The notes beneath the pieces are model-generated. The model did not search any database and was not told the origin of the DNA. It was given only the letters and a program-made list of their open reading frames with translations. Made by a program: the position numbers and the translations under genes. A DNA stretch of 64,000 nucleotides, taken from assembly GCA_035718185.1 (NCBI GenBank), contig DASTHN010000069.1, forward strand, positions 18,697-82,696, read 5' to 3'. The DNA is from Actinomycetota bacterium (lineage in GTDB: Bacteria > Actinomycetota > UBA4738 > HRBIN12). Below are positions 55,002 to 57,494 of this stretch, piece by piece (position 1 is the stretch's first letter; every line of letters begins with the position of its first letter).

Positions 55002-55634
55002 TCAGCGGGCGGCGATCCCGGAACGCAGCACCTCGATGAATTCACGGATCCGTTCCTCGCGACGGTCCGCACGGAACGGCTTGCGGTGCACCAGACCCGG
55101 GTCGAGCTCCTCACTGCCGAGCACGTCCTGGAAGCGCTCGGCGAGCCAGTCGAGCATGGAGGAGATCATCTCGACGTCCACGTCGTCACGGACCTCGCCG
55201 CGTCGGACGCCGAACTCCACGAGCTCGAGCGTGCCGTACGGGTCCTCGGACCGCATGAACCGGTCGATCGGCCGGCGGAGTCCGAGCCCCGTGTCGTAGC
55301 GCCCGATCATCGCGACCCGGTTGGGGATCCAGGCCTCGTCGAGGAACTCCTCGGTCTCCTCGATCCAGTAGTCCAGCACCGCCCAGAAGCCCTGCTCGAC
55401 GACCTCGGCCGGGGCCTCCAGCCACGACGGCAGCTCCCGGACGGCCCGCTCGTACGCGGCGAGGAACAGACCCTCCTTGTTCCCGAAGTGGAGGAACACC
55501 GTGCCCTTGGCCACACCCACCTCGGCGGCGATGTCCTCGACTCGAGCGCCGCGGTACCCGTGCTCGGCGAAGTGGCGCATCGCCACCTCGACGATGAGGT
55601 CGCGCTTCGTGTGGTGATCGTCCGCGGTGGTCAC
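55002..55634 (-). CDS. TetR-family transcriptional regulator
   Basis: The HTH IVEVAMRHFAEHGYRGARVEDIAAEVGVAKGTVFLHF. GTG start at 55634. Confidence 0.85.
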   Translation of the reverse strand: MTTADDHHTKRDLIVEVAMRHFAEHGYRGARVEDIAAEVGVAKGTVFLHFGNKEGLFLAAYERAVRELPSWLEAPAEVVEQGFWAVLDYWIEETEEFLDEAWIPNRVAMIGRYDTGLGLRRPIDRFMRSEDPYGTLELVEFGVRRGEVRDDVDVEMISSMLDWLAERFQDVLGSEELDPGLVHRKPFRADRREERIREFIEVLRSGIAAR

Positions 55635-55748
55635 GTCCCGGAACCGTACCGGCTCTCGCGGCGGTGGAACAAGCGCCGATGACGGGGACGATCGCCGAGG
55701 CGGAGTGGGGCAAGGCCCGGAGCGGCAAGGCCGAGGAGCGGGCCTGGC

Positions 55749-56060
55749 AAGGAAGAACCCGAGGGACCTCGGGCTCACCGGGGGCCGAAGCCTCCGATCA
55801 CCCTCAGCCCCTCGGGCTCAGGTGCTCCGAGCAACCTCAGGCAGCTGTCTTGGTTTCCTGGCGGTAGACCCTTTCGTTGGGCTTTGGGGCCTTCCGAGCC
55901 TCCCCGCCCGCACAGCTAGTTGGCCTTCCCAACCGTACGACCAGGTGCGCCCAGTCGGCCTTACGGCTTTCCCAGGGGTCCCCGCTTCGGTTCCCTGACT
56001 CAGCCGCTCCGGCTGCTCGGAGCGATACGGAATGTATCCGCGGGACACTGGGGGGTCAAC
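55749..56060 (-). ncRNA. candidate structured non-coding RNA, class unknown (core helix 56024-56012 pairs with 55837-55825)
   Basis: Sits in a 550-nt gap with no credible ORF and visibly lower GC. It has a 13-bp long-range helix and GUAA and UUCG tetraloop hairpins. A terminal hairpin, CCCGAGG-tc-CCTCGGG, is followed by UUCUUCCUU. G.U pairs occur only if the minus strand is the RNA. Confidence 0.5.
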
Positions 56061-56183
56061 CCGACGAACCCGCAGGTAGAGGCATGAATGCGCAGGTAGC
56101 GGGCCCGGGATAAAGAGTGACAAGAACATGTCCGCGTCGTGAACACCAGCGTGCATCGCCCCGAGCCCCTTGCACTGCAGATG

Positions 56184-57494
56184 TTACGCCGGGACGACCC
56201 GGTTCGCGATCCGAGCCGGGTGCCCCGACGGACCTCCGTCCAGGAGCTCCCTGTACACGGCCAGGATCTCCTCGGCGGTCGCATCCCACGAGAACCGTTG
56301 CGAGTGCGCGACGCCGGCCTCGCCCAGCCGGCGAGCGCCCGCGCGGTCGCGCAGGACCTGGAGGATGCGCTCGGCATGGTCGGCGGGGTCGTGTCCCTCG
56401 ACGAGGTAGCCGGTCACGCCGTCATCCACGACGTACCGCAGGCCGCCGACCGCCGCGGCGATCACGGGCGTGCCGCAGGCCTGGGCCTCGAGCGCGACCA
56501 GCCCGAACGACTCCGAGCGCGACGGCATGAGGACGACCTCTGCTGCCGAGTAGAAGTCGGCGAGTCGGACCTGCGGCTGGGGCGGGAACAGCATCACGCG
56601 CTCCTCCACCCCGAGTGCCCCGGCCAGGTCCATGAGCCTGGCGATCTCGGCGCCGCCGGTGCCGCTCGGTCCGCCGACGATCGCGAGCACGACGTCGGCC
56701 GTGCCCTCGGGGTCCCGCGCGAGCGCCTCGGCCAGGGCCTGGACCGCGATGTCGGGTCCCTTGTGGGGCTGGAGGCGGCCGACGAACAGCAGCAGGCGGA
56801 CGTCGGCCATGTGCAGCTGGCTCGCGGCGGCGGGCCGCGAGCGCGGGAAGAACACGGCGTGATCGACCCCCGGCGGCACGAGCCGGACCCGCTCGGGGTC
56901 CGCGCCGTACAGACCGACCAGCTGGGCCGCCTCGGTCGGCGTCCCGGCCATGATCCGGTCGGCGCGCGCGACCACCGCTCCCTCGCCGGCCAGGCGCTCC
57001 CGCATCTCGGGGCGCTCCCCGCGCGCGAGCGAGTAGTTCTTCACCTTCCCGAGGGTGTGGAACGACGACACGAGCGGAACCCCCCACGCGTCCCCGGCCC
57101 GCGTCCCGATCAGACCCGAGAGCCAGTAGTGGGTGTGGACGAGGTCGTAGCCTCCCACCGCGCCGCATCGCCGCAGGACGCCCTCGAGGAACTCGGGGAC
57201 GTACGGCGCGAGCTCCTCCTTCGGGATCGGCGCCCGTGGTCCGGCGTTCACGTGGACCACCTGCGCCCCCGGCGCCAGCTCCTCGATCTCGGCGACCTCG
57301 GGCGCGCGACGGCGCGTGAACACGTCGACGTCGATCCCGCGGCGCGCGAGCTGCTCGGCCGCGGCTCGCACGTACACGTTCATGCCGCCCGAGTCACCGG
57401 TGCCCGGCTGGTCGAGCGGGGAGGTGTGCAGGCTCACGACGGCCACGCGGGGACGCGGACCGTTCGCGCTCGAGCCGTCGGGGTTCGTTACCAC
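56184..57494 (-). CDS. mshA: D-inositol-3-phosphate glycosyltransferase (mycothiol biosynthesis)
   Basis: VAVVSLHTSPLDQPGTGDSGGMNVYV, the hallmark MshA N-terminus. GT4 C-terminal E-x7-E region (PSRSESFGLVALEA). Confidence 0.88.
   Translation of the reverse strand: MVTNPDGSSANGPRPRVAVVSLHTSPLDQPGTGDSGGMNVYVRAAAEQLARRGIDVDVFTRRRAPEVAEIEELAPGAQVVHVNAGPRAPIPKEELAPYVPEFLEGVLRRCGAVGGYDLVHTHYWLSGLIGTRAGDAWGVPLVSSFHTLGKVKNYSLARGERPEMRERLAGEGAVVARADRIMAGTPTEAAQLVGLYGADPERVRLVPPGVDHAVFFPRSRPAAASQLHMADVRLLLFVGRLQPHKGPDIAVQALAEALARDPEGTADVVLAIVGGPSGTGGAEIARLMDLAGALGVEERVMLFPPQPQVRLADFYSAAEVVLMPSRSESFGLVALEAQACGTPVIAAAVGGLRYVVDDGVTGYLVEGHDPADHAERILQVLRDRAGARRLGEAGVAHSQRFSWDATAEEILAVYRELLDGGPSGHPARIANRVVPA

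What the first reader, a model, noticed from the sequence alone, without database searches (positions are those of the whole stretch)
55749..56100. Unclassified, highly structured RNA candidate between mshA and the TetR-proline operon
The 550-nt gap (55635-56183) has no ORF with coding-like composition and is visibly less GC-rich than its surroundings. Read on the minus strand it shows the following:
- A 13-bp long-range helix, GCUCCGAGCAGCC (56024-56012) with GGUUGCUCGGAGC (55837-55825). It encloses ~175 nt.
- Nested helices AGCUGU/ACAGCU and AGCCGUA/UACGGUU.
- Hairpins capped by a GNRA loop (GCC-GUAA-GGC, 55968-55959) and a UUCG loop (GGC-UUCG-GCC, 55793-55784), plus GAUAC-AUUCC-GUAUC (56039-56025).
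- A terminal hairpin CCCGAGG-uc-CCUCGGG followed by UUCUUCCUU (55773-55749), which looks terminator-like.

Two of the helices contain G.U pairs that would be A.C mismatches on the plus strand, so the minus strand is the likely transcript. The 5' arm of the long helix can instead form a local hairpin (GCUCCG-agcagc-CGGAGC, 56024-56007). These mutually exclusive folds are of the kind used by riboswitches and attenuators.

I could not match the sequence to RNase P, tmRNA, SRP RNA, or the cobalamin, TPP, FMN, SAM, glycine, ydaO or ZTP consensus sequences as I remember them. A 6S/Ms1-like or novel RNA remains possible.
Basis: seen in the sequence. Interest (0 to 1): 0.65.

Follow-up and report, generated by a model that had tools for sequence, protein, structure and literature searches.

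The report
Abundant new structured small RNA gene
The gap after the mycothiol gene mshA holds a stand-alone gene for a tightly folded non-coding RNA from a family that I found in no RNA catalogue or paper; nearly every member of a group of uncultured soil actinobacteria carries it, and it is about as abundant in soil and freshwater RNA data as RNase P RNA of all bacteria together, yet its function is unknown.

Summary
The structured RNA on the minus strand is real, but it is not a riboswitch.

**What it is**
- It is an independent gene with a sigma-A-type promoter (TTGACC-17-TACATT, 56059-56031).
- The 5' end lies near 56024.
- A long 3' hairpin and a U-rich tail end near 55750.

**Evidence**
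- Covariation is strong: 33 of 86 pairs show compensatory changes, against 13.7 in shuffles.
- Rfam 15 has no match, including 6S and Ms1.
- The family occurs in 270 of 294 genomes of the class and in 107 of 109 high-quality ones. It nearly always follows mshA.
- Metatranscriptome contigs cover only about 56024-55823, at summed depths of one to two million. The flanking genes read about zero. The mature RNA is therefore probably the ~200-nt clamped domain.

- Not conserved: two nested helices, the local terminal hairpin and the GAUAC hairpin.

**Variants**
- Some genera keep the promoter, clamp and 3' hairpin but replace the core with six GCAA-capped hairpins.
- A second RNA with the same architecture lies elsewhere in this genome.

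**Function**
Best guess, about 30%: a protein-sequestering RNA that binds RNA polymerase, like 6S, Ms1 and CoRP.

The parts
56111..56126 (-). Upstream box TTCTTGTCACTCTTTA, about -102 to -87 from the start site. Probably a binding site for a transcription factor.
   Evidence: Near-invariant across relatives. The same box stands upstream of the sister RNA on contig C160 and of the short paralogues L076-L078.
56091..56099 (-). Box CTACCTGCG, copy 1.
   Evidence: Direct repeat with copy 2, 20 nt apart. Conserved as (C/T)(T/G)ACC(T/A)GC in relatives. It is inverted (CGCAGGTAG) in the short paralogues.
56071..56079 (-). Box CTACCTGCG, copy 2.
56031..56059 (-). Sigma-A-type promoter TTGACC, 17 nt, TACATT.
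   Evidence: It is the only promoter-like site in 55600-56250, against 0.0 expected from shuffles. TTGAC and TAnnnT are conserved in relatives.
55823..56024 (-). Abundant, probably mature RNA of about 200 nt. It is one long irregular hairpin (rod) closed by the P1 clamp.
   Evidence: RNA-run contigs cover only this span. One contig in X29 has cDNA ending at 56024 followed by CC and adaptor. Adaptor-joined ends lie at 55823 in 8 contigs of X25. 5' domain helices with compensatory changes.
56011..56023 (-). P1 clamp, 5' arm GCUCCGAGCAGCC.
   Evidence: Pairs with 55836-55824. 99.5% of cells are paired and 4 pairs show compensatory changes.
55824..55836 (-). P1 clamp, 3' arm GGUUGCUCGGAGC.
   Evidence: This arm is retained even in genera whose core is replaced.
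55958..55967 (-). GCC-GUAA-GGC candidate GNRA hairpin inside the invariant stretch CCCUGGGAAAGCCGUAAGG (55977-55959).
   Evidence: Invariant, so covariation says nothing. It competes with the pairing GGCC 55960-55957 / GGCC 55891-55888, whose pair 75:142 shows 10 double changes. The replaced cores consist of six GCC-GCAA-GGC hairpins.
55908..55940 (-). Apical hairpin UCGUACGGUUGG / CUAGCUGUGCGG with loop GAAGGCCAA (55928-55920).
   Evidence: Its alignment helix (columns 88-104 with 114-130, 16 pairs, which also includes the adjoining CCUG/CGGG stem) has 8 pairs with compensatory changes; one of them, 102:116, reads UA in 19 sequences, CG in 9 and AU in 1.
55870..55888 (-). Invariant 19-mer CCCAAAGCCCAACGAAAGG, partly unpaired.
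   Evidence: Identical in all 29 aligned relatives.
55755..55819 (-). 3' hairpin domain. It has an outer stem GAGCCCGAGGGGCU (55819-55806) / GGUCCCUCGGGUUC (55768-55755), a short middle stem (GGGU 55803-55800 / GCCC 55774-55771), and an inner 9-bp stem capped by UUCG (55789-55786).
   Evidence: Ten pairs show compensatory changes. It is the most widely conserved part by BLAST. Coverage in RNA runs is 60 to over 1000 times lower than on the 5' domain.
55750..55757 (-). U-rich tail UUCUUCCU, taken as the transcription stop.
   Evidence: Relatives have UUCUUUUU or UUCUUUUC at this place. The simple terminator scan did not flag the window's own copy.
56184..57494 (-). mshA (D-inositol-3-phosphate glycosyltransferase), the conserved upstream neighbour.
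   Evidence: TIGR03449 at 486 bits. It lies upstream on the same strand in 26 of 30 loci, and also in other families of the phylum.
55002..55634 (-). TetR-family regulator, the downstream neighbour. It is not part of the RNA.
   Evidence: PF00440. It lies downstream in only 16 of 30 loci.

Best explanation
**Shown**
- This is a stand-alone gene on the minus strand.
- RNA polymerase with the main sigma factor would start at about 56024, from a conserved TTGACC-17-TACATT promoter preceded by conserved boxes.
- Transcription would run about 275 nt and stop after a long conserved hairpin and a U-rich tail near 55750.
- The RNA that accumulates is the first ~200 nt. It is one long irregular hairpin whose 5' and 3' ends are clamped by a 13-bp helix. 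The 3' hairpin is largely missing from the steady-state pool.
- The family is nearly universal and, in most genomes, single-copy in a class of uncultured soil Actinomycetota. It is extremely abundant in environmental RNA.

**Inferred**
- The RNA works in trans as a stable protein-binding RNA that titrates a global factor.
- My single best guess is RNA polymerase, as for 6S RNA, Ms1 and CoRP, in a lineage where neither 6S nor Ms1 can be detected.

**Odds**
- Independent, processed, abundant structured RNA gene: about 0.95.
- Protein-binding RNA acting in trans: about 0.6.
- The partner is RNA polymerase: about 0.3.
For: **Gene structure**
- Promoter.
- Structure with 33 of 86 pairs compensated, against 13.7 +/- 2.0 in shuffles and at most 13 in slid controls.
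- Strand, from fold z-scores and G.U pairs.

**Distribution**
- Present in 56 of 61 relatives by BLAST at 72-96% identity, 270 of 294 genomes of the class, and 107 of 109 high-quality genomes.

**Abundance and ends**
- Summed contig depth is 2.35, 1.7 and 0.14 million in three RNA runs over about 55810-56020, with about zero on the neighbours.
- Depth is still about 1 million at 98% identity or more, with sharp edges at about 56024 and 55823.
- RNase P RNA of the same genome gives 0.77, 0.94 and 1.78 million at its universal core, but only 1e2 to 1e4 on lineage-specific parts.

**Room for an RNA polymerase binder**
- 6S (RF00013) passes the cut-off in 0 of 31 relatives, and Ms1 (RF02566) matches in 0 of 31.
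- The published record shows that actinobacterial lineages carry different, mutually unrecognisable, abundant RNA polymerase-binding RNAs: Ms1 (PMC9130861) and CoRP (PMC11077062).

**Shape**
- A rod of about 200 nt with internal loops, in the size range of 6S.

**Other partners excluded**
- Ro60 is absent in 31 of 31 relatives and CsrA in 30 of 31.
Against: - No test of binding was possible.
- The largest internal loop is only 10 + 6 nt, smaller than a 6S central bubble.
- Sequence conservation of loops and helices alike (a 19-nt invariant stretch) is far higher than is usual for 6S or Ms1.
- In genera g19 and g24 the rod is replaced by a bouquet of six GCAA-capped hairpins on the same chassis. 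That shape is hard to reconcile with open-promoter mimicry by the whole family.
- Ms1 synteny (HAD-IB hydrolase and oxidoreductase) is absent.
- The Rfam Ms1 model had no positive control among the 14 control genomes, so its silence is weak evidence.
- Contig depths sum related organisms and are poor measures of expression.
Confidence: 0.3

Rival explanations
1. It is the RNA part of a ribonucleoprotein, or a sponge or scaffold, for a protein other than RNA polymerase. One example would be an RNA-binding protein that recognises purine-flanked GCC-GYAA-GGC hairpins, present once in this RNA and six times in the variant cores.
For: - Loops and helices are both conserved very strongly, as in RNP RNAs.
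- The variant cores are six GCAA-capped hairpins with similar flanks.
- The motif AAAGCC occurs on both strands of the largest internal loop (sequence).
- Abundance is very high.
Against: - No candidate protein is linked by gene neighbourhood. The neighbours are mshA, a GNAT, TetR and proline genes.
- Ro60 and CsrA are absent.
- GNRA-capped hairpins are common stabilising elements in any GC-rich structured RNA.
Confidence: 0.3
2. It is a trans-acting base-pairing regulatory RNA whose conserved unpaired stretches, such as CCCAAAGCCCAACGAAAGG or the apical loop, pair with mRNAs.
For: - It has its own regulated-looking promoter with conserved upstream boxes.
- It has conserved single-stranded segments.
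Against: - Nearly the whole 200 nt is conserved, rather than a short seed.
- Abundance is orders of magnitude above mRNAs.
- The core can be swapped for unrelated hairpins.
- No target search was informative at this genome size (considered, not run).
Confidence: 0.1
3. It is a catalytic RNA or another self-contained structured RNA (a ribozyme or ligand sensor acting in trans) whose tertiary fold explains the invariant loops.
For: The pattern of invariant unpaired nucleotides with covarying helices resembles that of ribozymes and large riboswitches.
Against: - The core is dispensable in some genera.
- No known ribozyme family matches.
- Canonical RNase P RNA is present in 13 of 13 genomes.
Confidence: 0.08
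4. It is a riboswitch or attenuator leader that controls the downstream TetR-proline dehydrogenase-proC genes through mutually exclusive folds.
For: - CCGAG and CUCGG words recur in the clamp and in the 3' hairpin, so alternative pairings can be drawn (sequence).
- The RNA ends in a terminator-like hairpin just upstream of the TetR gene.
Against: - TetR follows in only 16 of 30 loci.
- The alternative 5' hairpin is no better than shuffles.
- Depth on the TetR gene is zero in three of the four RNA runs and no more than about 15 in the fourth (X27), while the RNA reaches up to about a million in X25 and X29 and about 10^4-10^5 in X38.
- The core is replaced in some genera.
- The sister RNA faces a convergent gene.
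Confidence: 0.03
5. It is a 3'-UTR-derived RNA cut out of the mshA transcript, which would explain the deeply conserved mshA linkage.
For: mshA lies upstream on the same strand in 26 of 30 loci, and also in other families of the phylum.
Against: - A conserved -35/-10 promoter sits at the right distance from the observed 5' end.
- There is no RNA coverage between mshA and 56024.
- In several loci another gene or 600-1200 nt separates mshA from the RNA.
Confidence: 0.03

Closest known systems
Ms1 RNA (Rfam RF02566; MTS2823 in M. tuberculosis, scr3559 in S. coelicolor), which binds the RNA polymerase core
   Same: - Actinobacterial, stand-alone and very abundant.
- A 200-300-nt rod-like fold with an extra 3' hairpin.
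- Found in a lineage without detectable 6S.
- Homologues in different orders are unrecognisable by sequence (PMC9130861).
   Different: - No match to RF02566 here or anywhere in 31 relatives.
- The neighbours are mshA and TetR, not a HAD-IB hydrolase and an oxidoreductase.
- Sequence conservation is much higher.
- Binding to polymerase is untested.
6S RNA (Rfam RF00013), which binds the sigma-70/sigma-A holoenzyme
   Same: - The mature size is about 200 nt.
- The ends are clamped in a closing stem.
- It has an irregular rod shape, very high abundance, and in most genomes a single copy that is near-universal in its lineage.
   Different: - No match to RF00013.
- The largest internal loop is 10 + 6 nt rather than a large central bubble.
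- The rod is replaced by a six-hairpin bouquet in some genera.
- Synthesis of pRNA is untestable here.
CoRP RNA of Corynebacterium (PMC11077062)
   Same: It is another lineage-specific, abundant actinobacterial RNA that binds RNA polymerase. It is also processed after transcription.
   Different: CoRP is 516 nt long, lies between tRNA genes, is cleaved into 318 + 198 nt, and has homologues only in Corynebacterium.
CsrB/RsmZ-type protein sponges and bacterial Y RNAs
   Same: - Repeated hairpin modules occur in the variant cores, as in Csr-type sponges.
- The 5'/3' stem is conserved while the inner module varies, as in Y RNAs.
   Different: CsrA is absent in 30 of 31 relatives and Ro60 (TROVE) in 31 of 31.

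Membership tests
6S RNA (RF00013) | Scores at or above the family covariance model's gathering score (46.4 bits) | tested here: not met
   No 6S hit in the window at gathering score or at E <= 10. No hit over the cut-off in 31 relatives.
6S RNA (RF00013) | Long closing stem, large central bubble and terminal stem (open-promoter mimic) | tested here: inconclusive
   Rod with a 13-bp closing stem, but the largest internal loop is 10 + 6 nt. Variant cores are multibranched.
6S RNA (RF00013) | Binds the sigma-A holoenzyme and templates pRNA | not testable with these tools
   Needs binding assays or small-RNA reads. Only assembled contigs were available.
Ms1 (RF02566) | Scores at or above the family model's gathering score (162 bits) | tested here: not met
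   No hit in the window. 0 of 31 relatives match at E <= 0.01. The search had no positive control.
Ms1 (RF02566) | Conserved neighbours: HAD-IB hydrolase/phosphoserine phosphatase and an oxidoreductase (PMC9130861) | tested here: not met
   The neighbours are mshA (TIGR03449) and TetR.
Ms1 (RF02566) | [quoted passage not shown] | not testable with these tools
   Experimental.
Riboswitch / transcription attenuator | Conserved association with a class of downstream genes that it controls | tested here: not met
   TetR is downstream in 16 of 30 loci. The sister RNA faces a convergent gene.
Riboswitch / transcription attenuator | Conserved ligand-binding core and conserved mutually exclusive pairings | tested here: not met
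   The core is replaced in g19 and g24. The alternative 5' hairpin is no better than shuffles.
Bacterial Y RNA | Ro60/Rsr (TROVE domain) protein encoded in the genome | tested here: not met
   PF05731 is absent in 31 of 31 genomes. The control genomes gave hits.
CsrB/RsmZ sponge | CsrA encoded in the genome | tested here: not met
   PF02599 is absent in 30 of 31 genomes.
RNase P RNA | It is the genome's only RNase P RNA, or it matches RF00010 | tested here: not met
   Canonical RF00010 RNA is present elsewhere in 13 of 13 genomes, including this one at C101:4126-4548.

The most novel reading that the evidence does not exclude
The RNA belongs to a previously undescribed class of modular 'chassis' RNAs. 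The fixed frame consists of conserved upstream boxes, a sigma-A promoter, a homologous 5'/3' clamp helix and a conserved 3' hairpin. This frame carries interchangeable inner modules: a 175-nt rod here, six GNRA hairpins in other genera, and a different 120-nt module in the sister RNA on contig C160. Together these RNAs would form a new, very abundant ribonucleoprotein system of uncultured soil Actinomycetota whose partner is neither RNA polymerase nor any known RNA-binding protein.
Probability: 0.3. Interest if true: 0.9.

Novelty: new variant of a known kind. Interest (0 to 1): 0.8.

Why it matters
- **Scale.** Soil Actinomycetota of this uncultured lineage are widespread. In the runs examined, their most abundant small RNA rivals RNase P RNA of the whole community, yet it has no name, no catalogued family and no known function.
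- **If it binds RNA polymerase.** It would be a fourth independent solution, after 6S, Ms1 and CoRP, to storing or silencing the enzyme. It would also be a direct read-out of dormancy in soil metatranscriptomes.
- **If it does not.** It marks an unknown ribonucleoprotein.
- **Practical use.** A covariance model for this family would remove a large block of unassigned reads from soil, sediment and freshwater RNA data.
- **Evolution.** The clamp-plus-variable-insert design is an unusual case of modular RNA evolution.

Tried and rejected
- **Rfam 15.** I scanned at gathering score over the whole window, and at E <= 10 over 1 kb and over the RNA alone. Only chance hits appeared: miRNAs, lncRNAs, and Guanidine-II at 20.5 bits across the mshA stop.
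- **RNase P idea.** A loose resemblance to the specificity domain, recalled from memory, was dropped. Canonical RNase P RNA is present in 13 of 13 genomes.
- **Other RNA classes.** Ms1, 6S, Y RNA and Csr sponge were each tested and not met.
- **Literature.** Word searches and searches with literal sequence strings found no description.
- **Genome collection scan.** It named only uncultured MAGs ('Actinomycetota bacterium', 'uncultured Actinomycetes bacterium', and one same-genus MAG labelled Solirubrobacterales).
- **Viral contigs.** One hit, which looks like an assembly chimera.
- **Terminator scan.** The simple scan did not flag the window's own tail.
- **mRNA target prediction.** Considered and not run, because chance matches would swamp it.
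- **6S/Ms1 versus this RNA across the phylum.** A complementary-distribution test was considered and not run, because both Rfam models are known to miss most actinobacterial homologues.

Full report
**The locus**

The finding lies in the 549-nt gap between two minus-strand genes.
- Upstream is mshA (56184-57494). It matches the equivalog model TIGR03449 at 486 bits, above its 462.5-bit cut-off.
- Downstream is a TetR-family regulator (55002-55634), followed by proline dehydrogenase and proC.
- The gap has 64-69% G+C, against 70-78% beside it.

**Is the structure there?**

- The minus strand of 55740-56110 folds at -192 kcal/mol, z = -4.1 against dinucleotide shuffles. None of 100 shuffles folds as well.
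- The plus strand is ordinary, z = +0.7.

**Conservation**

- BLAST of the region against 61 relatives finds it in 56. It is single-copy in most of them, at 72-96% nucleotide identity across eight families.
- That is a higher percent identity than the mshA protein beside it shows (64-87% amino-acid identity; a loose comparison, nucleotide against amino acid).
- A MAFFT alignment of 30 loci shows these features upstream of the RNA:
  - a near-invariant box TCTTGTCACTCTTT;
  - two CTACCTGCG-type boxes 20 nt apart;
  - TTGAC followed after 17-18 nt by TAnnnT.
- The promoter scan finds exactly one site in 55600-56250: TTGACC-17-TACATT at 56059-56031 on the minus strand. Shuffles give 0.0 expected.
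- The start site should therefore be near 56024, just before the 5' arm of the long helix.

**Structure by comparison**

I aligned 29 copies from the start to the U-tail (A1). RNAalifold gives two domains.
- The first is one long irregular hairpin closed by the 13-bp clamp.
- The second is a long 3' hairpin.

On this structure 98.3% of cells pair. Thirty-three of 86 pairs carry changes on both sides, against 13.7 +/- 2.0 in shuffles (0 of 500 as high) and at most 13 when partners are slid. About ten invariant G.U pairs would be A.C on the other strand, which fixes the minus strand as the transcript.

- The clamp and the UUCG hairpin hold.
- AGCCGUA/UACGGUU and AGCUGU/ACAGCU lose to pairings with real covariation. 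Pair 102:116 reads UA in 19 sequences, CG in 9 and AU in 1.
- The local terminal hairpin is broken in 18 of 29 relatives. The conserved pairing joins the first CCCGAGGGGC to GGUCCCUCGGG.
- The alternative 5' hairpin is no better than shuffles.
- GCC-GUAA-GGC never varies, so it stays open.
- GAUAC-AUUCC-GUAUC overlaps the -10 box and the start site.

**Known families**

- Rfam 15 gives nothing at gathering score for the whole window. At E <= 10 it gives nothing meaningful for 1 kb or for the RNA alone.
- Canonical RNase P RNA is present elsewhere in 13 of 13 genomes.
- 6S (RF00013) passes its cut-off in 0 of 31 relatives, and Ms1 (RF02566) matches in 0 of 31. The Ms1 search had no positive control.
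- Ms1's defining neighbours, a HAD-IB hydrolase and an oxidoreductase (PMC9130861), are not here.
- CoRP is a 516-nt RNA between tRNA genes in Corynebacterium (PMC11077062).
- Ro60 is absent in 31 of 31 relatives and CsrA in 30 of 31.
- Word searches and literal-sequence searches of the paper library found no description.

**Distribution**

- A covariance model (R1) finds the RNA in 270 of 294 genomes of the class, and in 107 of 109 high-quality ones.
- It finds the RNA in 45 of 401 genomes sampled across the phylum, covering 35 of 253 genera and including five other families.
- The named records that hold it are all uncultured MAGs, mostly from soil.
- mshA stays the upstream neighbour even in those other families.
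- TetR is downstream in only 16 of 30 loci.

**Expression**

Many soil, sediment, wetland and freshwater RNA runs hold the sequence. I laid contigs of three such runs on 55300-56600.
- Summed depths are 2.35, 1.7 and 0.14 million over about 55810-56020. mshA and tetR read essentially zero.
- At 98% identity or more the depth is still about 1 million in two runs. It falls to 14,000, then 670, then 0 beyond 55823, and to 0 beyond about 56030.
- One contig ends at 56024 followed by CC and the adaptor, as reverse transcriptase leaves at an RNA 5' end.
- Eight contigs in one run join the adaptor at 55823, one base after the clamp.
- As a yardstick, RNase P RNA of this genome gives 0.77, 0.94 and 1.78 million on its universally conserved core. 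That core collects contigs from many bacteria. Its lineage-specific parts give only 1e2 to 1e4.

Contig depths are crude and sum related organisms. The size of the contrast still makes the point. The species that accumulates is the ~200-nt clamped domain, and the 3' hairpin is mostly gone or not captured.

**Variants**

- In genera g19 and g24 the boxes, promoter, clamp arms and 3' hairpin are kept. The core is replaced by about 280 nt that fold into six hairpins, each capped GCC-GCAA-GGC.
- Genera g10 and g53 carry an additional short paralogue without the 3' hairpin. Its boxes are inverted.
- Family f18 has a 318-nt form with insertions.
- This same genome has a sister RNA on contig C160:
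  - it has the same TTTGTCACTCTTTC and GCTACCTGCG boxes and a TTGACA-17-TACTGT promoter;
  - it has a homologous clamp, GGUCCCAAGCGGCC/GGUCGCUUGGGGCC;
  - it has its own 16-bp 3' hairpin and a different inner module;
  - it is expressed, with its 5' end at the first base of the clamp;
  - it is found in 56 of 61 relatives and has no Rfam hit.

**What it does**

The gene, its structure, its strand, its probable processing and its abundance are shown. The function is inferred. I rank the readings as follows.
- **Cis-regulatory reading.** It fails on the variable downstream gene, the RNA's own promoter, the abundance contrast, the replaceable core and the sister RNA that faces a convergent gene.
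- **3'-UTR origin.** It fails on the promoter and on the coverage gap.
- **Simple base-pairing sRNA.** Conservation of almost every nucleotide argues against it and for a protein-bound or tertiary-folded RNA.
- **RNA polymerase binder.** This is the best precedent among known kinds. Actinobacterial lineages each have their own abundant, mutually unrecognisable polymerase binder, and this lineage shows neither 6S nor Ms1. I put it at about 30%. The small internal loops, and above all the six-hairpin variants, do not look like an open promoter.
- **Unknown protein partner recognising the GNRA hairpin module.** About equally likely.

**Earlier notes of this scan**

After I had reached the above, a sequence look-up showed that other agents had described the same family in five other genomes, with the same conclusions.
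- I took from them the Ms1 accession and the pointer to CoRP, and I tested both here.
- They are not independent evidence.
- As far as those notes show, the following are new: the sister RNA on C160, the shared upstream box at three further promoters (one leading to an OmpR-family regulator), and the exclusion of Ro60 and CsrA.

Noticed in passing
Outside the window: own genome contig C160, about 849 down to 640, minus strand (locus L214): A second small RNA with the same architecture. It has the TTTGTCACTCTTTC box, a GCTACCTGCG box, a TTGACA-17-TACTGT promoter, a homologous 14-bp clamp, a different ~120-nt core and a 16-bp 3' hairpin. It is expressed: exact contigs reach depth 343 and 37, and the 5' end is at G849. 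It has no Rfam hit and is found in 56 of 61 relatives. It lies after an FTR1 iron permease gene.
   Followed up: partly
Own genome C59:5177-5188 (+), C154:5597-5608 (-), C103:22265-22276 (+); loci L215-L217: The box TGTCAC(T/A)CTTT recurs at three more sites. Read on the other strand it sits 13-15 nt upstream of a TTGACG -35 of a sigma-A-type promoter. At C154 that promoter leads to an OmpR-family response regulator, whose best model is MtrA at 216 bits, below the 300-bit cut-off. This may be a shared regulator of both small RNAs.
   Followed up: partly
L082:1000-1120 (genus g19), upstream of that genome's copy of the RNA: Four tandem ~32-nt units, each containing GTCACAG(C/T)GCG. From memory, this resembles the MtrA recognition repeat of mycobacteria.
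   Followed up: no
L076-L078 (genera g10, g53): An extra, shorter paralogue of the RNA. It has the same core motifs and no 3' hairpin domain, the clamp is followed directly by a U-tract, and the CTACCTGCG boxes are in inverted orientation.
   Followed up: partly
L233 (IMGVR_UViG_3300024553_000086, 2437 nt): A 'viral' contig ends in a copy of the RNA core fused to AT-rich DNA. It looks like an assembly chimera caused by the RNA's abundance, not a phage copy.
   Followed up: partly
window 56160-56202 (+): A weak Guanidine-II (mini-ykkC) match of 20.5 bits, E = 0.13, below the 32-bit gathering score. It lies across the mshA stop codon on the opposite strand and is taken as chance.
   Followed up: no
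L086:1450-2555 and several other loci (L003, L008, L012 and others): In some relatives a GNAT acetyltransferase-like ORF, or 600-1200 nt of other sequence, sits between mshA and the RNA. The mshA-RNA order persists even across families of the phylum, and I have no explanation for that linkage.
   Followed up: no
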